From assembly GCA_025812035.1 (NCBI GenBank), contig GCA_025812035.1_4719.1: 64,000 nt of DNA; one strand, given 5' to 3'. Origin of the DNA: a phage. Below are positions 6,605 to 48,272 of this stretch, piece by piece; within the stretch, counting starts at the first letter, position 1; every line of letters starts with the position of its first letter. Under the pieces are notes generated by a model. The model was not told the DNA's origin and did not search any database. It saw nothing but the letters and a program-made list of their open reading frames with translations. Position numbers and translations under genes: made by a program.

Positions 6605-6666
6605 CTCGTAGTAAAAGTAAATAGGATTTGTCGAGACGCCCTAATTACTTACAACGTAGGTTCTCC

Positions 6667-7551
6667 TCAATAACGGCCGTAGCGTTCCTCGAGCCGTTCT
6701 GGTTTTCTCAGAAGGCTATCTTTAAGCGGTACGACGTCGATATCAACACTCTCTGAGTAATAGCCGTTAGAACTACCATACCAACGGATGACAACACAGC
6801 CCTTCGCAGTGCGGATATGGTAGAATGTCCATTGTGTACGTTCGCTATAATAGCCGTAGTCATCGGTTCTTTCCTCGGTTCTTTCTTCAGCACTGAGTAT
6901 CTTTTCACCGATGATATCGTTAATATCGCCCTCAATGTCTTCAAGATACACCTCTTCGCAGCAATCCTGCTGATGACAGAATTCGACAACGTTTCCATCG
7001 CCGCGATAGAAAAGAAGGGCGATACCGTTTCGTAATTGCTCGCTCGTTACATCAGACACGCAATGCAAACTTTTATCGTCGGTTATCACCAAGACATTGT
7101 TGATTACATGCCCGGCAAGCGCTCCAATCTTATTTACCGTAACAATCGGACGAACCGGTTCAGATTGAACGATAGGAATACGGACACAACCAATTAAGGC
7201 CATCCGTCCTTTCGTTGGTCTAACCGCAAGATAAGGTGATTTTCTTGGGTGGTTATGTAGTCGTATTTCTACTTCGTTGAATTTAATCCCGTATGAACAC
7301 AGAAAATAATTGAATAGTTTACGGAATTCCTCGGTTGCTTCTTGCAACGTGATGTTATTTACTGTGAGTTTATGTCCCCTAAACACCCGGGTTAAATCGA
7401 TAACATCCAGTGTTTTGAAATATATTTCCGTAAGGGGATGACCCGTGTATTCCAGGCAAGTAATTGTTCTTTGAACCACGATTTTAGGCGGTGCGCCTTT
7501 AAAACGTTTCAGGTATTTAACGCGATAACGGGTATGATCTGACGTTAACAT
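6667..7551 (-). CDS. hypothetical protein (294 aa; start moved to internal ATG)
   Basis: ATG at 7549..7551 preceded by GGAGAGGAG; the longer track ORF would run through the terminator hairpin at 7627..7647. Confidence 0.55.
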   Translation of the reverse strand: MLTSDHTRYRVKYLKRFKGAPPKIVVQRTITCLEYTGHPLTEIYFKTLDVIDLTRVFRGHKLTVNNITLQEATEEFRKLFNYFLCSYGIKFNEVEIRLHNHPRKSPYLAVRPTKGRMALIGCVRIPIVQSEPVRPIVTVNKIGALAGHVINNVLVITDDKSLHCVSDVTSEQLRNGIALLFYRGDGNVVEFCHQQDCCEEVYLEDIEGDINDIIGEKILSAEERTEERTDDYGYYSERTQWTFYHIRTAKGCVVIRWYGSSNGYYSESVDIDVVPLKDSLLRKPERLEERYGRY

Positions 7552-41424: not shown

Positions 41425-42222
41425 TTAACGTGTTCTCCTATCACGGTGGGTATATGACTGAAGACCAATGTCCATATGCGGTAACGTCAATGTCTGCCAG
41501 ATCTGGCGTGCGTAACGATCGAGCGTATGATCGTTGGTAACACAATCAACGGGTTCAATGAGGTGAGTTGTATACTGGCTTTTCTCAGAGAAAGGTTCGA
41601 TGTTGGCCGTATCCCCTAATCCGCTTTTCACCGTGAAGACGAGACGTGTGATTATCATCGCCTTATGTTGCTGTTCGTTATAGCGAAGGCTACGATATAC
41701 CGCATAGCTTCCTCCTTTTAAGCTTCGGGTATAACGAAGATCGGAGGTTGTCTCGGAAATCTGATACAACATCCAATCCAACGTATCTCGCCAGTACGCA
41801 TCATCCACATCAGGAACCGTGATACCGTACCGCGTAGGCAGCAAATCTAAAAGCAGTTTATACAGTCCGCGACGTAAGCCATGCTCTTCTGTTTCCGATA
41901 AACCGTTTCCAACGTAACGTGAGATACGTGTACGTAAATACATACGGATGAACATGTTTGCCATCAGCGATTTCGCGCTACTACTGGTGTCCTCGAAACG
42001 ATCGACGCTGAAACTCGTTTCAATCAACCGTCCATTAAAATACAACGCGGCAACGTACATCGCATTACTGCTATCTCGTTCGATGTTTAAACGACCGCAG
42101 ATGTTGGCTGCATCATTCATGGTAAATTCTAATTTATCATGTTCGATACGGTAAATAATATCTTCTTGGGTTGCCAGGCTCGCGATGCGGCGGTAGCCCG
42201 GAGAAGTGCGTTTTACACTCAT
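41425..42222 (-). CDS. hypothetical protein (265 aa)
   Basis: complete ORF. Confidence 0.5.
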   Translation of the reverse strand: MSVKRTSPGYRRIASLATQEDIIYRIEHDKLEFTMNDAANICGRLNIERDSSNAMYVAALYFNGRLIETSFSVDRFEDTSSSAKSLMANMFIRMYLRTRISRYVGNGLSETEEHGLRRGLYKLLLDLLPTRYGITVPDVDDAYWRDTLDWMLYQISETTSDLRYTRSLKGGSYAVYRSLRYNEQQHKAMIITRLVFTVKSGLGDTANIEPFSEKSQYTTHLIEPVDCVTNDHTLDRYARQIWQTLTLPHMDIGLQSYTHRDRRTR

Positions 42223-42256
42223 GATTGTCCTCGTTTTTCAATTTAAGATTACATAC

Positions 42257-42290
42257 GGCATAAACCCTCCCCGCCTTATGCAGGGAGGGT
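42257..42290 (-). terminator. GC hairpin followed by TTTATGCCG
   Basis: stem CCCTCC/GGAGGG, then TTTATGCCGTATG. Confidence 0.5.
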
Positions 42291-42304
42291 AGCCATTGAA
42301 TGGA

Positions 42305-42943
42305 TTAACCTAATTTACCACCGGCGATGTTGGTGAAATCTTCGCCGTCAGGAACTTGCAATAGAATACGTGCCATGTCCCAGTTGGTTAGTGTGATTGC
42401 TTTATCATCGATACTCAGTTCTGGTAGGTCGAGTTCATGATCGTCAAACTCGTAGGAAATACTCCACGTTTCATCTGTTTTAGGATCGGTTATCAGCACA
42501 CCGTCTGTTACACGCATGTAGTCCGGATGCAGCTCATTACTGAATGTGCTGAACGGATCGGTGTAACATTCAGCATACCCCTCGATCTGCTGACGCTGCG
42601 CCTTCGTACGTAAATCAGGGCACGCCATGATGAGTTGTCGGGATATGCCGTTTGCAGCTCGGAAATCCTCCACGGTGTTACATGGCATAACCACATCGTC
42701 GTGGAAGATGTTCTCCGATTGTCTCAGCAAAGTCTTACGGAGTTCAGCATAGTTTATCTGATTGAATGCGTCGAACGTTGCTAACGATTCAGCGTAAAAA
42801 TGCTTTACGTGTTCGCTTGCGCCGCCGAGACTATTCATCAACTTGTGACCGTACTCCATGAAACTTTTATCGAGACCGGAGGACATTTCTCCGAACCTCA
42901 GTGCACGATAACTGTCTCGTCCACCTGTAAATATTTGCGCCAT
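42305..42943 (-). CDS. hypothetical protein (212 aa)
   Basis: complete ORF. Confidence 0.5.
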   Translation of the reverse strand: MAQIFTGGRDSYRALRFGEMSSGLDKSFMEYGHKLMNSLGGASEHVKHFYAESLATFDAFNQINYAELRKTLLRQSENIFHDDVVMPCNTVEDFRAANGISRQLIMACPDLRTKAQRQQIEGYAECYTDPFSTFSNELHPDYMRVTDGVLITDPKTDETWSISYEFDDHELDLPELSIDDKAITLTNWDMARILLQVPDGEDFTNIAGGKLG

Positions 42944-42958
42944 TACAGGCGTCCTCCT

Positions 42959-43183
42959 TTAGCAATGGTTGTTAGTTGCTTCTATTTCGTCAAGATAAGG
43001 TTCTACGTCATCGCCCTCCACGAATTCGTTGAACCAGCAGTCAATGGTAGAAATAACCGGTGACTGGTGTTCACATTTCTTAGATACCTTAAAAGGTACG
43101 TTATTATCCATCATACCGAGTTCGGGTCGAAAACGCCCGAAATGTTTCGCAGTCCAAATGTCTGGGACGATATGGTTGTTCAT
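42959..43183 (-). CDS. RNA polymerase beta' N-terminal fragment, exon 3 (begins MNNHIVP..)
   Basis: MNNHIVP..ELGMMDNNV parallels beta' MAVHVP..ALMMSTNNI directly after the catalytic DGD; preceded by G at 43184. Confidence 0.6.
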   Translation of the reverse strand: MNNHIVPDIWTAKHFGRFRPELGMMDNNVPFKVSKKCEHQSPVISTIDCWFNEFVEGDDVEPYLDEIEATNNHC

Positions 43184-43574
43184 CGTGGTGTTCAGCATGA
43201 GTCGCTACCTCATACCCGCAGCTTTACCTGCAGCTTCCGGTGTTACCGGAATGTCCAGAATACATCTTATCCATATTCCAAATGGAACGTAGGACTTCCG
43301 CGCTGGATCTCGCTTGAGACCACGTATTCGTTGAACCTGCGTTGTTTCACATTCTTGCAAACAAGAATGCCGTATTGCTACGCAACAACCAGGCTGCTGA
43401 TCGAACATTGTCATGTACGGTAGGCATCCCCGAAGGGACTGTCATTGAAGCCGCGTACATCCGCTACCTTGTTTCTACCTTATCGGTTCCTCTTACGAGG
43501 CGTAGCGGCCTTAGCCCTTCCCAGCAATTCACGGAATCCAAGCTCTTCCTTTCGGAAGGCAGGGCCTATGATTA
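43184..43574 (-). ncRNA. candidate ORF-less self-splicing intron 2 (group I-like)
   Basis: P-like GAAUUGCUGGGAAGGG (43515..43530) and Q-like GAUCAGCAGCC (43392..43402); starts after U, ends with G; several local hairpins; P1 and P7 not resolved by eye. Confidence 0.45.
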
Positions 43575-43587
43575 AGCGTCACCGTCG
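43575..43587 (-). CDS. RNA polymerase beta' micro-exon (13 nt, c-GAC-GGU-GAC-GCU, encodes DGDA)
   Basis: only placement that rebuilds NADF-DGD-A-MNNHIVP in frame with U at both 5' splice sites and G at both intron 3' ends. Confidence 0.5.
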
Positions 43588-45028
43588 CTTACGTGCACCG
43601 ACGTTTATTAACTCATGGTTATCCACTGAAATACGGCGTTAGGGAAATAATCCTTCTTGCCGCGTTTTGAGATTTGCAATGCCATATTACTCGGAGACAA
43701 TCTGTAATGCCATGCTGCTTCATCGATAGAACTAAACTTCTTTGTTTCGCCGTTATCAAAGATGATTTTCAACGCTAGTTTAGGTAAATCGTCTTCCGTT
43801 TCTACTAGTTCGAAAGAATCGATATTCTCTGCCAGCGTTAACGGATCAACAGGTAATATCAGCCAACCAGCACGCTGCAATCCTCCACGTAGACTAATTT
43901 GTTTATTCAACGCAGGGGTAGCCATGCCAACTAACTTAGCAGCCAGCTTGCGGTCTTTAATATAAAGACGATAATCTCCGGTATTATTAATAGCATACAC
44001 ACCAAAGTTATTGAACGATACCTTTCCAGCATCGGAACTAGTAAAGCCTACAAAGTCGTGGCTGTCGGTAGCCACGTCGTATTTAAATGCTAATGGCTTG
44101 TTTCGACTGCCGCTAAGATACTTCTTGGCTGTAGATACCGATATGTTGAGATATCGTCCAATAGCATTCAAACTTTCTAGTTCGATGATTTCTCCTGTCA
44201 ATATGTCCTTTAACCGAACATTACCCATCGGTATTGGTGGTTTACCGACATAACCCAATTCACGATATGCGTGTTTCAAGTTATCTGAATCAGTAGCCCA
44301 TTCCAAATTTTCTAGTCTGTTATCCCAACGCACTCCATTAAGATGATTAGGGACACGACGGATTATACCTGACGTCGGATCTGGGTTAAATGTTTCAAGG
44401 ACGATCTGATGATGGTATTTCACTTTGTTGTTCCTAGTGAAAGCGCGATAGTTGTTTTTGCCCGACTTGGGTGGTTCAGTACGAAACAACACTGTCAGAC
44501 TAGACACATCTACTATCGTACCGTTCTTATTAACAACGATACCATCAAAACCATTAACAGGACGATAATCAGACAAACAATCTTCAGAAATTGCCTGTCC
44601 AACTAAAGGTTCACTCAATTTGACCTCCTTTATAAAAGAAGTCGGTGCACGTAATTATCGACTATATCTTCATCCTCGTTGCGAGGAGTCTCCCGTTTTG
44701 GTCTGTGTTTAACAGAGCCTACTCTACTCGACATCGCGTCTTTCGATAGTCTGTGAGCACACATCTTAACGAACATTCGTGGATTCCTAAGCAGGTGAAC
44801 GTTCTTGTTGAGATGCTTCGCTGCGGATTATTCCCGTCCTACCTCTTTTACCATACCCAGTTCATTACGCTGGCCCTCATCTGTGTCACCACGATGAGTT
44901 GGTGTGTAGTCCGATTACAGAAACTTCCCGTCAATTAGAGAGTTTTAACTACGTTCCTGTTACCAGAAACCCGACTCCGACGATATCAATTAAATCAACG
45001 TAAATTATTGATTTAATTGAAGAAACTG
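43588..45028 (-). mobile_element. group I intron 1 with embedded HNH homing endonuclease gene
   Basis: IGS GAGUCGG (44971..44977) pairs with exon end CCGACUU with terminal U-G; P AAUUGACGGGAAG (44924..44936), Q AAUCCGCAGC (44820..44829), R ACAGACUAUCG (44744..44754), S AAGAUAUAGUCG (44659..44670); 12-bp stem 44641..44652 with 43591..43602 loops out the ORF; ends with G at 43588. Confidence 0.7.
43608..44618 (-). CDS. HNH homing endonuclease (intron-encoded), UUG start
   Basis: HHQIVLETF..NHLNGVRWDNRLENLEWATDSDNLKHA HNH motif; AAGGAGGT RBS before UUG; lies entirely inside intron 1. Confidence 0.75.
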   Translation of the reverse strand: MSEPLVGQAISEDCLSDYRPVNGFDGIVVNKNGTIVDVSSLTVLFRTEPPKSGKNNYRAFTRNNKVKYHHQIVLETFNPDPTSGIIRRVPNHLNGVRWDNRLENLEWATDSDNLKHAYRELGYVGKPPIPMGNVRLKDILTGEIIELESLNAIGRYLNISVSTAKKYLSGSRNKPLAFKYDVATDSHDFVGFTSSDAGKVSFNNFGVYAINNTGDYRLYIKDRKLAAKLVGMATPALNKQISLRGGLQRAGWLILPVDPLTLAENIDSFELVETEDDLPKLALKIIFDNGETKKFSSIDEAAWHYRLSPSNMALQISKRGKKDYFPNAVFQWITMS

Positions 45029-46284
45029 AAGTCGGCATTATAACCTTTCAAGATCATCACGCTTAACCCGATGGTGTTATCCTGCGGATCGCGTTTAACC
45101 TTGGTGATTTCAAGACATTGGTTACTGCTTCGGTCAAGTGATGGATTTCGAACAAAACCACACACAATCCCATCAAACGGTGTATCAGCAATAAGCTCAT
45201 CGTGCAGCTCGCTCATCATCGGATGATAATTACGGACATGTTCCGCAACGAACGCACGTGCTGCTCTTGGTGAATAACCACGATGGAATAACTTGGATTG
45301 GATATGTTCTTTATTGGTTAATGTAAATGGCGCGTATGGGAAATGCAGATGATAATAACGATGGTTCGCTGTTATCGAACTGATTACGGTACGCGTGGTG
45401 AATGGATGTAATGTACCTAATATGTTTTTACGTGTGATACCTTTCTTCTTACCGATGAACTCATCGAAAATCGCCGAGTGGTACTGCAGCAGCTTCAGTT
45501 GTACTTTCGCCATCCAGTTTTCTTTCTTTCTGGCGCTCAAAGGTGTTGTTGGGTGATAGATACTATTCAATGTACCGATAGCATCGATCGCACCTTCCAT
45601 TTTGCTATCTGCATAACGACCGGTTGGTGTATTCTCGATAACGAACATCATGGCGGCAGGAAAACTGATATACTGGCTGAAGAACTTATCGCGATGAATG
45701 CGGGTGAATTCTCGTAGCGTATCAACTTTCTCCGTGTTCTTCGGTCCGCGTAACGTAGGTCCTTTATACAAGATCTCCATGATGCGATCGAAGTTCTGTA
45801 TAAAGCTATTTATCCCACGTCGTATCCCGAATACATCGAATTGCTGCTCCAGATAGTTCTTGAGTTCGATGGGTCGTTTTACGTTTGGACGGTAACTGGC
45901 ATCAATGAGCCACGTCATCGTTTCAAAGCTTTTGATATTCAACTCGCTTGCCAGCACGAGATGGACCAACGGGTTAATAAACGCATCAATTCCTTCAGGA
46001 ACACGCGCCCAAACCGTCGAACGAATCTCTTGTTCTGCTGGGTAGGTTACAACCGTTTTACAGTTTGGACACACCGTGCCAAGCAGCTCACCACGATTGT
46101 AGAAACCACATCCACATTGTGGTGTGATATCCAACGTATCGCTGGAGTAAACACGGGTGATAAAACTGTTTAATTTCTTCTTCTCTTCGACGACTTTTGT
46201 GTCGTAATCATTCAACAAAATAGGCGTAAAAGGAAGTTCTGCGAGCTGTCTATCGAAACTCACGATATCGAGCATGATGGCCAT
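45029..46284 (-). CDS. RNA polymerase beta' N-terminal fragment, exon 1 (ends ..YNADF)
   Basis: zinc finger CGCGFYNRGELLGTVCPNCK and ..NPSL.R...Q.....IGL..ILKGYNADF parallel E. coli beta' up to NADF; unspliced frame stops 5 codons after NADF. Confidence 0.75.
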
Positions 46285-46320
46285 GGGGTATCTCCTACAA
46301 ATGAAAAAGAACGTTAGGAC

Positions 46321-46350
46321 GTATAAGGGAGGGAGGTTGCCCTCCCTCCC
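46321..46350 (-). terminator. 10-bp perfect GC hairpin after the 631-aa gene, followed by TTATAC
   Basis: stem GGGAGGGAGG/CCTCCCTCCC, loop TTGC. Confidence 0.6.
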
Positions 46351-46376
46351 GTCAGATTACATCGAACGTTCTTCCA

Positions 46377-48272
46377 TTAGAACAGGTTGAATGCCCCACC
46401 CATGTTGTTACCACCAACGTTCGGACGATCGCTGCGTGCGTAGATGCTACCGGAGATATTACCCAGACCACGAGCACGTGCTGCCATGTTACCACGAACA
46501 GCGGTACCCGCCAGATGCTGGATATTCTCAGGACGGATGGTGAAGCCAGCTTCAGCAGCTGCTTCAATCAACGCAGCAAGCGCTTGCGGTTCGAAGTCGT
46601 AACGCATTGCCCAACCGGTTTGTTCCCAGCTACCAGACAGAACACGATCGATGATTTCGTGACGAGCGACAACACGCTGAGACATCGACATATCGGTACG
46701 GTCGAAGCTGTCTTCCCATGCTTCTACGGTATCCGGGTTAGTGATGTTCATCATGTACAGATCGTCCATATCGCGAATATCGTGACGGTTACCATCCTGG
46801 TGGTTGTAGTGACCCAGCGGGATACGGTTACCGGTAGCGTAGACCAGCGGTTGACCGTATTGATATTTCTTGCTGAAGCAGCCCAGGGTAGTATCATCGA
46901 AGGCACGGAAGAGTGCTTTGTAACCTTCAGAGACTTCCCGAACATCAGCCTCAACATTACCCGTATAGATCTTCTCAGCCGCCGGGATCATACGCAACAG
47001 CCAGCTGTATTCGCCTTCTTCCGGCACGTCGATAGAAATCAGCAGGGACGGATACAGTACCTGTTGCAGGAACTTGTAAATCTGCTCATTGGTTTGAGTA
47101 GACAGATCCAGCGGTGCGGTAACTTCCGGATCCAGCACCATCGCCAGAGCACCCGGGTTATGCGGACCGATACCACGAGCAGCGTTGCTGATTAAAGACT
47201 GCGCCCATGCCATGCCGCTGTTCAGCGTAGCAATGGTACCAATCAGACCCAATACAAAAGTATTCGGTGTGAATGCGTCCAGCTCCAGCGGGTAAGCGCT
47301 GGTCATCACGTAACGCGGCTGGTATTGTACAGTCGGCGGTACCGGATAACCGTTAACCAGAACAGGACCTTGGTTGAAGGTCGGGTTCTGCGGGCTGTAG
47401 GTCAGGTCGATATAGCCGGTAGTTGCGACCAGACGCTGCTGGCTATCGTAATCGCTCATCGCTTGACGGATGCGGTTAGAGATAGTTACAGTGATGTCGG
47501 AACGCACTGGGTTACCAACGATATCGCTGTCCTGCATACCGCTGGTGTTATACTGAACGCTGCTGATCGGCTGATCGCTTGCCATCATGCCCAGGTTGAA
47601 CTGCGGCAGGCCCAGTTTATCACCGAGACGGATTTCGATTGCGGTTTGGATTGCGTTATCTGCAGCAGACAGCAGGGTGGTTGCCAGGTGTGCAGATTCA
47701 GCGGTGATTTCATTGGTCACCACAGCCAGACCAGCGATACGAACAGTACCATTAGCCTTGCCACCAATAGCCGCATACATTGCCGCCATGACTTCGTTGA
47801 TGAACGTGCCGTTCAGGTTATCAACCCAGGTACGCGGTACCAGAATGTTACCATGCGGACCTTGTTCTTCACGACGCGGCAGCGGAGCCAAACCGGCAAC
47901 CAGCGGAAGCACATAACCGAAGAAGTGGTTATGATCACCAACTTTCGCACCACTCATAACCACCAGGGTCGGATACGGTACACTGTACTGACCAGGATCG
48001 ACAGTCACCATGATGAAGTCGTCTTTAAAGCCTTTATCTTCCAGTTCTTTTTCCATCAGACGACGGAGGTTCAGTACTTGCTCAGAACCGGTGTTACGGC
48101 TAATACGACGACTCAGTGTACGGTTGATCGTACGCATCGTATGAGTCACTTTAGGCTGGCCAGCAAAGTCTGCAGCGGTTTCCAGCGCTTCATCTGCACG
48201 TTGTGCGGTGCGGGTTTCAGCTGCACGAATTTCTACATTATCGTTACCGTTTTTACGTACGTCTAAGCCCAT
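46377..48272 (-). CDS. abundant 631-aa protein; candidate nuclear-shell (chimallin-like) or major structural protein
   Basis: very strong codon bias; disordered N-terminus and Gly-rich C-terminal tail; conserved promoter-like motif upstream and strong GC hairpin downstream. Confidence 0.6.
   Translation of the reverse strand: MGLDVRKNGNDNVEIRAAETRTAQRADEALETAADFAGQPKVTHTMRTINRTLSRRISRNTGSEQVLNLRRLMEKELEDKGFKDDFIMVTVDPGQYSVPYPTLVVMSGAKVGDHNHFFGYVLPLVAGLAPLPRREEQGPHGNILVPRTWVDNLNGTFINEVMAAMYAAIGGKANGTVRIAGLAVVTNEITAESAHLATTLLSAADNAIQTAIEIRLGDKLGLPQFNLGMMASDQPISSVQYNTSGMQDSDIVGNPVRSDITVTISNRIRQAMSDYDSQQRLVATTGYIDLTYSPQNPTFNQGPVLVNGYPVPPTVQYQPRYVMTSAYPLELDAFTPNTFVLGLIGTIATLNSGMAWAQSLISNAARGIGPHNPGALAMVLDPEVTAPLDLSTQTNEQIYKFLQQVLYPSLLISIDVPEEGEYSWLLRMIPAAEKIYTGNVEADVREVSEGYKALFRAFDDTTLGCFSKKYQYGQPLVYATGNRIPLGHYNHQDGNRHDIRDMDDLYMMNITNPDTVEAWEDSFDRTDMSMSQRVVARHEIIDRVLSGSWEQTGWAMRYDFEPQALAALIEAAAEAGFTIRPENIQHLAGTAVRGNMAARARGLGNISGSIYARSDRPNVGGNNMGGAFNLF

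What the first reader, a model, noticed from the sequence alone, without database searches (positions are those of the whole stretch)
43588..45028. Intron 1 is a canonical group I intron with an HNH homing endonuclease looped out near its 3' end
Seen in sequence on the minus strand: an internal guide GAGUCGG (44971..44977) pairs with the exon end CCGACUU with the terminal U-G wobble; P (AAUUGACGGGAAG), Q (AAUCCGCAGC), R (ACAGACUAUCG) and S (AAGAUAUAGUCG) elements occur in the right order, giving a classical P7 GACUA/UAGUC. A perfect 12-bp stem (44641..44652 with 43591..43602) brackets the 1011-nt HNH ORF, which has its own AAGGAGGT RBS and a UUG start; the intron ends in G at 43588.
Basis: partly seen in the sequence, partly recalled or inferred. 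Interest (0 to 1): 0.75.

Follow-up and report, generated by a model that had tools for sequence, protein, structure and literature searches.

The report
Group I intron with HNH endonuclease
This is a real self-splicing-type (group I) intron carrying a homing-endonuclease gene, sitting in the active-site codons of a jumbo phage's own RNA polymerase gene; it is an ordinary, partly annotated kind of element, but it lies 13 bases from a second, unannotated intron in a spot where sister phages carry different sets of introns.

Summary
The window comes from a close relative (97.6% nt) of Escherichia phage Goslar, a nucleus-forming jumbo phage. On the minus strand, 45028..43588 is a 1441-nt group I intron of the IA type. 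It interrupts the homologue of phiKZ gp55 (non-virion RNA polymerase beta'-N) inside the universal NADFDGD motif.

- **Sequence support:** Rfam RF00028 matches full length at 47.8 bits (E 2.8e-10), 2.2 bits below the gathering score. A contiguous 12-nt guide pairs with both exon ends, giving P1 with a U.G wobble and a 5-bp P10.
- **Comparative support:** Six distinct sister sequences keep 99.7% of 114 modelled pairs. Five pairs show double compensatory changes, two of them in P1.
- **Boundaries:** One sister phage lacks the intron and reads GACTTTGACGGTGAT without a break. Another has the ribozyme without the ORF and without the stem.
- **The ORF:** It is an I-HmuI-like HNH/NUMOD endonuclease (dN/dS 0.064), closed off by a perfect 14-bp stem.

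Goslar's GenBank record already marks an "Intron_gpI" feature and an HNH gene, but it does not join the exons. A 13-nt micro-exon follows intron 1, then a second, unannotated group I intron (43574..43184). Intron insertion sites at this motif vary among related phages. The kind is known, and interest is modest.

The parts
45029..46284 (-). Exon 1 of the non-virion RNA polymerase beta'-N gene (phiKZ gp55 / 201phi2-1 gp107 homologue). It ends ...GGT TAT AAT GCC GAC TT.
   Evidence: The ORF list shows it read through to 45013 as a 423-aa ORF ending SFFN*. It lies next to chimallin. It aligns with 201phi2-1 gp107 at 32% identity, E 7e-82.
43588..45028 (-). Intron 1: a 1441-nt group I intron of the IA type, including the ORF-bearing 3' stem-loop.
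   Evidence: Rfam RF00028 47.8 bits, E 2.8e-10. Covariation on alignment A1. An intron-less allele in L007 and an ORF-less allele in L008.
45029..45035 (-). 5' strand of P1: the last 7 exon bases, CCGACUU. The U at 45029 forms the U.G wobble at the 5' splice site.
   Evidence: The U.G pair is kept in 6 of 6 sequences, and two other P1 pairs change on both sides.
44971..44982 (-). Internal guide sequence CGUCG-GAGUCGG. The 3' part (44977..44971) pairs with exon 1 (P1). The 5' part (44982..44978) pairs with the first 5 bases of the next exon (P10).
   Evidence: helices 1 and 3: 100% paired. The guide complements the ligated exon junction CCGACUU|CGACG at 11 Watson-Crick pairs plus 1 wobble.
44987..45019 (-). 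A 12-bp hairpin in the P1 loop (P1 extension), CAAUUAAAUCAA/UUGAUUUAAUUG. It contains the in-frame stop (45015..45013) that ends translation of unspliced RNA.
   Evidence: Inverted repeat I2, MFE fold. Rfam aligns its P1 here.
44953..44970 (-). P2: GUUUCUG GUAA CAGGAAC, 7 bp with a GNRA loop.
   Evidence: helix 4: two pairs vary on one side only, all remain paired.
44659..44942 (-). Catalytic core. P3 CUCUC/GGGAG; P4 UG(A)CGGG/UCCGCA; P5 with P5b/P5c arms; P6/P6a/P6b; P7 C(A)GACUA/UAGUCG; P7.1 and P7.2 between P7 and the P3 3' strand; P8 UCCUCG/CGAGGA.
   Evidence: Rfam alignment, coordinates, pair counts. Compensatory changes occur in P5b, P6a and P7.2.
44641..44654 (-). 5' arm of the 14-bp stem (P9-like) that closes off the ORF: UUACGUGCACCGAC.
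   Evidence: It is 100% conserved in the lineage whose ORF is only 82.8% identical, and absent together with the ORF in L008.
43589..43602 (-). 3' arm of the stem, GUCGGUGCACGUAA, directly followed by the terminal G.
44623..44630 (-). Shine-Dalgarno sequence AAGGAGGU, 4 nt upstream of the UUG start.
   Evidence: GGAGG and the UUG start are kept in the diverged lineage.
43608..44618 (-). ORF for an HNH homing endonuclease (336 aa) with HNH_3, NUMOD1 and I-HmuI NUMOD-like domains.
   Evidence: Pfam. dN/dS 0.064 against the L009 variant. Foldseek match to I-HmuI 1u3e, E 2.3e-7. 23% identity over 92% of its length to PhiPA3 gp210.
43588..43588 (-). Terminal G (omega-G) of intron 1; the 3' splice site is 43588|43587.
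   Evidence: All variants end ...AG|CGACGG.
43575..43587 (-). 13-nt micro-exon CGACGGUGACGCU. It completes the Phe codon and encodes D-G-D-A, supplying two of the three aspartates of the NADFDGD motif.
   Evidence: L007 reads GACTTTGACGGTGATGCC without a break.
43184..43574 (-). Intron 2: 391 nt, ORF-less and group-I-like, with P AAUUGCUGGGAA, Q AUCAGCAGC, R UUCAACGAAUACG and S AAGAUGUAUUC. Its P1 hairpin is GCU|UA-AUCA-UAGGC, and it ends in G at 43184.
   Evidence: Rfam does not detect it in the window. Sister copies score 23-28 bits. Alignment A2 is 98.8% paired with 18 pairs changed on both sides.
42959..43183 (-). Exon 3: ATG AAC AAC CAT... (MNNHIVPD...), through the stop codon.
   Evidence: It is annotated in Goslar as a separate 79-aa hypothetical protein, gp185.

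Best explanation
Window 45028..43588 (minus strand) is a mobile group I intron of the IA type. [quoted passage not shown]

What the sequences show:
- The pre-mRNA can form P1 between the last 7 exon bases (CCGACUU) and the guide GAGUCGG, with U.G at the cleavage site.
- The core P3-P8 is present with the classical P/Q/R/S elements and a P7 carrying a bulged A.
- The adjacent guide bases CGUCG can hold the next exon (P10).
- A terminal G sits at 43588.
- A 14-bp stem ties the two ends of a 1038-nt loop together, so the terminal G lies only about 35 nt, through the stem, from P7.
- That loop holds an independently translated gene (Shine-Dalgarno sequence plus UUG start) for an I-HmuI-like HNH/NUMOD endonuclease.

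What I infer from the established group I and I-HmuI/gp210 mechanisms:
- A free guanosine attacks after U45029. The freed exon then attacks after G43588, joining GAC TT to C GAC GGT GAC GCT.
- The endonuclease nicks intron-less copies of this site in co-infecting relatives. Repair from the intron-bearing genome then copies the intron in, or the nick simply harms the competitor.

A functional polymerase subunit also needs a second, ORF-less group I intron (43574..43184) to be removed, 13 nt downstream. Together the two splicing events give ...NADF|DGDA|MNNHIVPD....
For: - Rfam: RF00028 matches full length, 47.8 bits, E 2.8e-10. The same element scores 46.5-47.3 bits in L008 and L010.
- Prior annotation: Goslar's records annotate Intron_gpI and an HNH endonuclease at the equivalent position.
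- Splice sites: joining recreates NADFDGD. The spliced product aligns without a gap to intron-less 201phi2-1 gp107 and passes the Pfam RNA_pol_Rpb1_2 cut-off, 36.8 against 15.7 bits unspliced.
- Structure: 114 modelled pairs are 99.7% paired in 6 distinct sequences. Five pairs show double compensatory changes (2 in P1, 1 each in P5b, P6a, P7.2). 0 of 500 shuffles reach this, and slid controls give 35-39% paired with 0-1 compensatory pairs.
- Natural variants: L007 lacks the intron precisely. L008 has the ribozyme without the ORF or the stem. The architectures are tabulated.
- Stem: 0 of 3000 shuffles give such a stem. It is unchanged in a lineage whose ORF has dS of about 1.
- ORF: HNH_3 at 31.1 bits and NUMOD1 at 24.0 bits, both above cut-off. 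His/Asn residues are invariant. dN/dS is 0.064. The only significant PDB fold match is I-HmuI. The closest full-length phage relative, PhiPA3 gp210, is a proven nicking intron endonuclease (PMC11620839).
Against: - No experimental evidence of splicing or DNA cleavage exists for this element.
- The Rfam score is 2.2 bits below the curated gathering score, and the default scan returns nothing.
- The comparative set is small (6 distinct, closely related sequences), and I drew the structure from one of them, which inflates the 'percent paired' measure.
- Parts of the P5 extension are not resolved, and MFE folding does not recover the P3/P7 core.
- The endonuclease model has only moderate confidence (pLDDT 68.8).
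- Long-read transcriptomics of phiKZ did not detect splicing of its predicted introns (PMC10914365), so prediction alone has failed to be confirmed in a related phage.
- No fully intron-less Goslar-like allele was found, so ongoing homing has no observed empty target apart from L007.
Confidence: 0.9

Rival explanations
1. One long intron runs from 45028 to 43184. On this reading, CGACGGUGACGCU is an internal intron sequence and there is no micro-exon.
For: Rfam reports only one group I hit in the window. The stretch 43574..43184 gives no hit even at E<10.
Against: - Joining 45029 directly to 43183 gives GAC TT+A TGA, a frameshift and a stop, and it deletes the DGD codons.
- L007 reads DFDGDA without a break between two introns.
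- P10 (CGACG/CGUCG) and the terminal G are at 43588.
- The downstream element has its own P1, P3, P4, P7 and P9 helices, with 18 pairs changed on both sides. Sister copies score 23-28 bits on RF00028.
Confidence: 0.02
2. The element is a decayed intron that no longer splices. The gene is genuinely split, and the phage makes a 423-aa protein and a separate 79-aa protein, as the GenBank records annotate.
For: Goslar's records list exon 1 and gp185 as separate CDSs. phiKZ long-read data did not show splicing of its predicted introns (PMC10914365).
Against: - The unspliced product lacks the two downstream aspartates of the NADFDGD triad that beta' subunits need, and it fails the Pfam cut-off.
- Every helix is kept, with compensatory changes, across lineages that have diverged by up to 8% in the core.
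- Exon and guide have co-varied, which is expected only if P1 is still in use.
Confidence: 0.04
3. The HNH gene is a free-standing endonuclease gene lying between two separate RNA elements, not part of the intron. On this reading the ribozyme ends near 44640.
For: The Rfam hit and Goslar's ncRNA feature stop at 44642, before the ORF. The ORF has its own ribosome-binding site. The ORF is far more diverged than the ribozyme, so it behaves as a separate module.
Against: - There is no exon sequence between 44640 and 43588. The DGD codons come only after 43588.
- The 14-bp stem joins the two sides of the ORF and places the terminal G next to the core.
- In the ORF-less L008 the ribozyme runs straight into ...GAUAACAG|CGACGG, so in ORF-bearing genomes the ORF lies inside the intron's boundaries.
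Confidence: 0.03

Closest known systems
The annotated Intron_gpI feature and HNH endonuclease gp186 of Escherichia phage vB_EcoM_Goslar (NC_048170 / MK327938)
   Same: It is the same element at the same place. The core is 98.9% identical and the ORF 99.7% identical at the protein level.
   Different: The record marks only the 377-nt Rfam hit. It does not include the ORF and 3' stem in the intron, does not join the exons, lists exon 3 as a hypothetical protein, and does not annotate intron 2. The Goslar genome paper contains no mention of introns. The window's intron 2 also has a P6 arm 36 nt longer than Goslar's.
PhiPA3 gp210 intron in a virion RNA polymerase beta subunit gene (Birkholz et al. 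2024, PMC11620839)
   Same: It is also a putative group I intron in an RNA polymerase subunit gene of a nucleus-forming jumbo phage, inserted at conserved acidic residues. It encodes an HNH endonuclease that is the closest full-length phage relative of this ORF (23% identity, 92% coverage, E 4e-9).
   Different: It lies in a different gene (virion beta subunit, not non-virion beta'-N) and a different host. Nicking and interference competition are proven for gp210 and untested here. In the window, a second intron lies 13 nt from intron 1.
The phiKZ gp55/gp56 intron (phiKZ-like phages T2P, U5, U1B)
   Same: It interrupts the same gene (nvRNAP beta'-N) at the same motif and is a group I intron (RF00028 80.4 bits). 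Its 3' tail is homologous to the tails of the Goslar-like introns A, B and 2.
   Different: It is inserted at AAT|GCG (N|A), 8 nt upstream of the intron 1 site. Its P4 is UGCUGG/UCAGCA. In T2P the endonuclease is a 38-aa remnant located 5' of the core.
I-HmuI / I-BasI introns in the DNA polymerase genes of Bacillus phages SPO1 and Bastille
   Same: These are also phage group I introns that encode an elongated HNH plus NUMOD nicking endonuclease. I-HmuI is the only significant structural match of the ORF model (1u3e, E 2.3e-7).
   Different: The host gene differs, and there is no detectable sequence similarity to I-HmuI by phmmer. The position of the ORF in those introns was not checked here.
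Multi-intron phage genes (Twort orf142; Bastillevirinae DNA polymerase, terminase and RNR genes, PMC11878797)
   Same: Several group I introns sit in one essential gene. A small exon between two introns and exon skipping are reported for phiNIT1 and SIOphi (PMC11878797).
   Different: Here the introns crowd into one motif. Sister phages carry up to three introns within 26 coding bases, with 13-nt exons between them.

Membership tests
Group I intron (Rfam RF00028) | Covariance-model score at or above the curated gathering score (50 bits) | tested here: not met
   47.8 bits, E 2.8e-10, model positions 1-253. There is no hit at gathering. The shortfall is 2.2 bits, with long insertions in P1, P5, P6 and between P7 and P3.
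Group I intron | Conserved core with P3-P8, including P4 (P/Q) and P7 (R/S) and the P3/P7 pseudoknot topology | tested here: met
   Coordinates. All core helices are 96.7-100% paired in 6 sequences.
Group I intron | 5' splice site after a U that forms a U.G wobble with an internal guide sequence (P1) | tested here: met
   U45029.G44977. The U.G pair is present in 6 of 6 sequences, and two P1 pairs change on both sides together with synonymous exon changes.
Group I intron | Intron ends in G, and the 3' exon can pair with the guide (P10) | tested here: met
   G43588. CGACG (43587..43583) pairs with CGUCG (44982..44978), kept in all sequences.
Group I intron | Guanosine-dependent self-splicing | not testable with these tools
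   This needs in vitro transcription and splicing, or cDNA from infected cells.
Subgroup IA | Extra helices P7.1/P7.2 between the P7 5' strand and the P3 3' strand (a criterion recalled from Michel and Westhof 1990) | tested here: met
   A 49-nt insertion at that place folds into UCGA...UCGA and GG(C)UCUGU/ACAGACC. P7.2 has a double compensatory change. No subgroup-specific model was available.
HNH homing endonuclease, I-HmuI type | HNH domain with the catalytic His and Asn residues | tested here: met
   HNH_3 31.1 bits against a cut-off of 24.8. H92, N104, N113 and H116 are invariant in the alignment of 10 relatives.
HNH homing endonuclease, I-HmuI type | NUMOD-type DNA-binding modules C-terminal to the nuclease | tested here: met
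   NUMOD1 24.0 bits against a cut-off of 22.8. I-HmuI_NUMOD-like scores 16.9 bits, below its cut-off.
HNH homing endonuclease, I-HmuI type | Fold similar to I-HmuI | tested here: met
   Foldseek against 1u3e gives E 2.3e-7, probability 1.00, and it is the only hit below 0.001. The model has moderate confidence, pLDDT 68.8.
HNH homing endonuclease, I-HmuI type | Site-specific nicking or cutting of the intron-less allele | not testable with these tools
   This needs purified protein and a synthetic target.
Mobile (homing) intron | Presence/absence polymorphism at an otherwise conserved site in close relatives | tested here: met
   L007 (99% identical exon 1 protein) lacks intron 1. L008 lacks only the ORF and stem. 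The direction of change (gain or loss) is not resolved.

The most novel reading that the evidence does not exclude
The active-site codons (G)YNADFDGD(A/Q)M of the non-virion RNA polymerase beta' gene are a contested landing strip. Five different group I intron insertion sites fall within 31 nt across nucleus-forming phages, four of them in Goslar-like phages and one in phiKZ-like phages. One genome carries up to three introns within 26 coding bases, separated by 13-nt exons.

The novel reading is that this pile-up is kept by competition between phages. Each resident intron splits the recognition site of a neighbour's endonuclease and so gives immunity. Meanwhile the one intact HNH enzyme (in intron 1) acts as a weapon against co-infecting relatives with a contiguous site, as PhiPA3 gp210 does against phiKZ.
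Probability: 0.3. Interest if true: 0.6.

Novelty: new member of a known kind. Interest (0 to 1): 0.35.

Why it matters
**For annotation.** The public records of this phage group list a truncated 423-aa polymerase subunit and a stray 79-aa "hypothetical protein". The real product is a 496-aa subunit made by removing two introns, and its catalytic DGD comes from a 13-nt exon.

**For biology.** Goslar is a main E. coli model for nucleus-forming phages, and its middle and late transcription depends on this polymerase. If splicing is needed, it is an obligatory step, and one that can be targeted. In these phages transcription is separated from translation.

**For testing competition.** The natural variants offer a ready-made system: no intron 1, intron 1 without the ORF, and two or three introns. 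With them one could test whether intron endonucleases and neighbouring introns act as weapons and shields in phage-phage competition, as proposed for PhiPA3 gp210.

None of this changes the view of what group I introns are.

Tried and rejected
- **Rfam at gathering thresholds, whole window:** no hit. Only the E-value mode shows the intron. Intron 2 was never detected in the window, even in a 541-nt search.
- **MFE folding of the ORF-deleted construct:** it recovers P1, the P1 hairpin, P5b, P7.2, P8 and the stem. It does not recover the P3/P4/P7 core, as expected for a pseudoknotted ribozyme.
- **Sequence search of the ORF against PDB chains:** nothing meaningful. A fold search was needed.
- **Protein homologue search:** only 10 relatives in 5.8 billion sequences, and only two are close.
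- **Search for an intron-less Goslar-like allele:** none in IMG/VR. In JGI metagenomes there were three hits, all unrelated beta' genes: two cellular-type and one distant phage.
- **Search for further copies of the intron 1 core in IMG/VR:** only Goslar and L008.
- **Literature:** no paper in the library describes introns in Goslar's polymerase gene. I could not retrieve the Twort paper.
- **Readings considered and rejected:** a single long intron, a decayed intron with a split gene, and a free-standing HNH gene (see the rival explanations).
- **Left open:**
  - The CCGACUU at the end of the stem's 5' arm may be a functional mimic of the 5' exon. It persists in lineages whose guide no longer matches it, which argues for a historical footprint.
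  - I could not decide whether L008 lost the ORF or the others gained it. The junctions do not fit a clean deletion.
Full report
**Where the window comes from**

The region 42000..46400 is 97.6% identical to Escherichia phage vB_EcoM_Goslar, a nucleus-forming jumbo phage. On the minus strand the order of genes is:
- chimallin (48272..46377);
- a 423-aa ORF (46284..45013);
- the finding itself;
- several small ORFs.

Goslar's two GenBank records already carry an ncRNA feature "Intron_gpI" at the equivalent position, followed by an "HNH endonuclease / NUMOD1 domain protein" CDS. They annotate the upstream ORF as a complete CDS and a downstream 79-aa ORF as a hypothetical protein. The Goslar genome paper does not contain the word intron. 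I found no paper in the library that describes introns in this gene of Goslar.

**Checking the observation**

| Element | Sequence | Window coordinates (minus strand) |
|---|---|---|
| Exon end | CCGACUU | 45035..45029 |
| Guide | GAGUCGG | 44977..44971 |
| P | AAUUGACGGGAAG | 44936..44924 |
| Q | AAUCCGCAGC | 44829..44820 |
| R | ACAGACUAUCG | 44754..44744 |
| S | AAGAUAUAGUCG | 44670..44659 |
| Stem | 14 perfect bp | 44654..44641 with 43602..43589 |
| Ribosome-binding site | AAGGAGGU | 44630..44623 |
| ORF (UUG start) | 1011 nt | 44618..43608 |
| Terminal G | G | 43588 |

- The stem is 14 perfect bp rather than 12. The repeat tool extends it imperfectly to 22 nt.
- Rfam at gathering thresholds reports nothing in the window. 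In E-value mode, RF00028 matches 45019..44642 over the whole model (positions 1-253) at 47.8 bits, E 2.8e-10. This is 2.2 bits short of the curated score.
- In 3000 Markov shuffles of the intron, a 12-bp inverted repeat appeared somewhere in 156. None had one bracketing the ORF.
- The intron with the ORF loop replaced by GAAA folds at -144.3 kcal/mol, z = -6.0.

**Splice sites**

Exon 1 ends ...AAT GCC GAC TT, and the sequence after G43588 is C GAC GGT GAC GCT. Joining them gives NADFDGDA, which contains the universal Mg-binding motif of beta' subunits.

Intron-less homologues read straight through this motif:
- 201phi2-1 gp107 reads ...LKAPNADFDGDQLNMTLLPD, and PhiPA3 gp054 reads ...LKAPNADFDGDQLNLTLMPD.
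- Both are annotated as phiKZ gp55 homologues, that is, the non-virion RNA polymerase beta'-N subunit.

Directly 5' of the P1 guide lies CGUCG (44982..44978), which pairs with the first five bases of the next exon. The 12-nt guide CGUCGGAGUCGG is therefore complementary to the ligated junction CCGACUU|CGACG, with a single wobble at the cleavage site.

Rfam's alignment places its P1 on a 12-bp hairpin at 45019..44987. I read that hairpin as an extension in the P1 loop. It holds the stop codon that ends translation of unspliced RNA four codons into the intron.

**Comparative evidence**

Searches with the exon 1 protein and with the ORF protein brought in ten Goslar-like loci from IMG/VR, ENA, Logan and NCBI. 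A module-by-module BLAST and direct reading give four architectures:

| Architecture | Loci |
|---|---|
| intron 1 + ORF, then intron 2 | window, Goslar, L009, L012 (L015 shows the same as far as it reaches, but ends inside the ORF) |
| intron A, then intron 1 + ORF, then intron 2 | L010, L011, L013, L014 |
| intron A, then intron 1 without ORF, then intron 2 | L008 |
| intron B, then intron 2', with no intron 1 | L007 |

- L007 reads GAC TTT GAC GGT GAT GCC without a break. This fixes the boundaries of intron 1 to the base.
- L008 ends its intron 1 with ...GAUAUAGUCGAUAACAG|CGACGG. The ORF and its 14-bp stem are therefore present or absent as one unit.

I drew a P1-P10 structure by hand and counted it on the six distinct intron 1 sequences (alignment A1). 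The results were:
- 99.7% of 665 cells are standard pairs.
- 5 pairs change on both sides and 9 on one side only. Two cells are unpaired, both in one metagenome assembly.
- No shuffle out of 500 reaches these values.
- Partners slid by 1-3 columns give 35-39% paired and 0-1 compensatory pairs.

The most telling case is P1. Genomes with exon ...GCC GAC TT have the guide GAGUCGG. Genomes with the synonymous ...GCA GAT TT have GGAUCUG. That gives C:G to A:U and C:G to U:A at two positions, with U.G kept at the splice site in all six.

The set is small and the sequences are close. I also derived the structure from the window sequence. The percent-paired figure is therefore generous, and the compensatory changes are the stronger evidence.

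**Type of intron**

A 49-nt insertion lies between the P7 5' strand and the P3 3' strand. It folds into two hairpins (P7.1 and P7.2), and P7.2 has a compensatory change. From memory of Michel and Westhof's classification, this is the mark of subgroup IA, the usual subgroup in phages. I had no subgroup-specific models to test it.

**The ORF**
- Pfam finds HNH_3 (31.1 bits) and NUMOD1 (24.0 bits), both above their cut-offs. It also finds a weak I-HmuI NUMOD-like match.
- The ORF has very few relatives. The only close one (90% aa) sits in the same intron in other Goslar-like contigs.
- Between the two lineages dS is about 1.0 and dN/dS is 0.064, so the protein is under strong purifying selection.
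- Over the same comparison the ribozyme core is 96% identical. The 28 stem bases are unchanged, although the untranslated bases just inside the stem have diverged. The ORF thus has a history separate from its ribozyme, and the stem is constrained.
- An AlphaFold model of moderate confidence (pLDDT 68.8) has one significant PDB match, the nicking HNH homing endonuclease I-HmuI (E 2.3e-7).
- The closest full-length phage relative is PhiPA3 gp210 (23% identity over 92%). That enzyme is a proven nicking endonuclease encoded in a putative group I intron of an RNA polymerase gene (PMC11620839).

**What follows the intron**

After the 13 bases CGACGGUGACGCU the reading frame hits TAA, so a second intervening sequence is required.
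- **Boundaries.** I place it at 43574..43184 (391 nt). The exon ends in U43575, the intron ends in G43184, and the next exon starts ATG AAC AAC CAT (MNNHIVPD), matching QLNMTLLPD of the homologues.
- **Core elements.** It has P/Q/R/S-like elements AAUUGCUGGGAA, AUCAGCAGC, UUCAACGAAUACG and AAGAUGUAUUC.
- **P1 and P10.** Its P1 hairpin is GCU|UA-AUCA-UAGGC, with U.G at the splice site. A 4-bp P10 forms between AUGA and UCAU.
- **Detection.** Rfam does not report it in the window. Sister copies and the related intron B score 23-28 bits (E 0.002-0.06).
- **Covariation.** On seven sequences of this family, 58 modelled pairs are 98.8% paired. Eighteen pairs change on both sides, including P1, P2, P7 and P9. 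Slid controls give 0-1.

Removing both introns gives a 496-aa protein (my count from the exon lengths; the BLASTP run lists the query as 497 aa). It aligns without a gap to gp107 through the junction. Its Pfam RNA_pol_Rpb1_2 score is 36.8 bits, against 15.7 bits for the unspliced ORF.

The 13-nt exon serves both introns without overlap. Bases 1-5 form P10 of intron 1, and bases 11-13 form P1 of intron 2.

**The wider picture**

Introns occupy five different sites within 31 nt of this motif:

| Site | Position in the coding sequence | Where seen |
|---|---|---|
| Intron A | GGGT\|AT | L008, L010 and others; RF00028 28-30 bits |
| phiKZ-type | AAT\|GCG | T2P and relatives; RF00028 80.4 bits |
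| Intron B | GCT\|GAC | L007 |
| Intron 1 | GACTT\|C | window, Goslar and others |
| Intron 2 | GC(T/C)\|ATG | all Goslar-like loci examined here |

L008 carries three introns within 26 coding bases, separated by two 13-nt exons. Only intron 1 has an intact endonuclease gene in the Goslar-like phages.

Introns in phiKZ RNA polymerase genes, including gp55/gp56, were predicted long ago (cited in PMC11512511). Multi-intron phage genes with a small internal exon and exon skipping are documented (PMC11878797). The kind is therefore well known. The crowding at one motif and the variety of arrangements among near-identical phages are what stand out.

**Mechanism, and what is inferred**

The sequences show an RNA that has every structural requirement of a group I ribozyme. 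They also show an ORF under selection with the domains and fold of a nicking homing endonuclease.

The rest is inferred from the established chemistry of group I introns and from I-HmuI and gp210:
- guanosine attack after U45029;
- exon ligation after G43588;
- nicking of contiguous target sites in co-infecting relatives, followed by gene conversion or damage to the competitor.

A further idea is speculative: that neighbouring introns protect a genome by splitting the endonuclease's recognition site. This rests only on the pattern of arrangements and on the precedent of competing intron endonucleases in SPO1 and SP82.

**Cautions**
- No splicing or cleavage data exist for this phage.
- phiKZ long-read transcriptomics did not see splicing of its predicted introns (PMC10914365).
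- No fully intron-less Goslar-like allele turned up in IMG/VR or JGI metagenomes.

**Verdict**

The finding is correct as written, apart from the stem length (14 bp rather than 12). It describes an element that is already partly flagged in the reference genome's annotation and belongs to a well-known kind. Its added value lies in exact splice sites, the micro-exon, the unannotated second intron, and the natural variants.

Noticed in passing
window 43184..43574 (minus strand): A second, ORF-less group-I-like intron lies 13 nt downstream of intron 1. Rfam does not detect it in the window, and it is not annotated in Goslar. It is supported by P/Q/R/S elements, P1/P10 pairings and 18 pairs changed on both sides among 7 relatives.
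   Followed up: yes
window ~43333..43392 (minus strand), inside intron 2: The window's intron 2 is 391 nt, against 354-355 nt in Goslar, L008 and L009-L013. The difference is a longer, differently sequenced P6 arm (CCUGGUUGUUGCG...CAUUCUUG-UUU-GCAAGAAUG...AACAACGCAGG), as if a hairpin module had been swapped.
   Followed up: partly
L008 6244..6608 and L010 3210..3575: A third group I intron (intron A) is inserted at GGGT|ATAAT, 13 coding bases upstream of intron 1. L008 therefore has three introns within 26 coding bases. Intron A scores 28-30 bits on RF00028.
   Followed up: partly
L007 6240..6600 and 6620..6976: This sister phage lacks intron 1. It has an intron-2-like element (intron B) at AACGCT|GACTTT, plus intron 2'. 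Intron 2' has C rather than U as the last exon base (GAUGCC|AGAGCC), which gives C-G where a group I intron normally has U.G.
   Followed up: partly
window 44641..44647 versus 45029..45035 (minus strand): The 5' arm of the ORF-closing stem ends in CCGACUU, the same 7 bases as the 5' exon end that pairs with the guide. It persists in lineages whose exon and guide have changed to CAGAUUU/GGAUCUG. It is either a footprint of how the ORF arrived or a decoy substrate.
   Followed up: partly
window 43608..44618 versus L009 4001..5011: The endonuclease ORF is only 82.8% identical in nucleotides between two lineages (dS about 1.0). Over the same comparison, the surrounding ribozyme is 96% identical, exon 1 is 98% identical, and the 14-bp stem is identical. 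The ORF seems to have been exchanged independently of its intron.
   Followed up: partly
window 45013..46284 and 42959..43198; Goslar gp247 and gp185: The public Goslar records annotate exon 1 as a complete 423-aa protein ending SFFN*. They annotate exon 3, read from an upstream in-frame ATG inside intron 2, as a 79-aa hypothetical protein. The spliced 496-aa subunit is not annotated.
   Followed up: yes
L013 (NCBI GCA_008102125.1, contig AAJPOU010000051.1): A 2.3-kb contig in a Salmonella enterica serovar Kentucky assembly carries the three-intron version of this locus. This suggests either a Goslar-like phage associated with Salmonella or contamination.
   Followed up: no
L005 2256..2716 (Pseudomonas phage T2P; also U5, U1B, phi9_PA9): phiKZ-like phages have a strong group I intron (RF00028 80.4 bits) in the same gene at AAT|GCG, with a 38-aa remnant of an HNH gene. 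Its 3' tail (GGGUAUGG...CCAUACUGAA) is homologous to the tails of introns A, B and 2 of the Goslar-like phages.
   Followed up: partly
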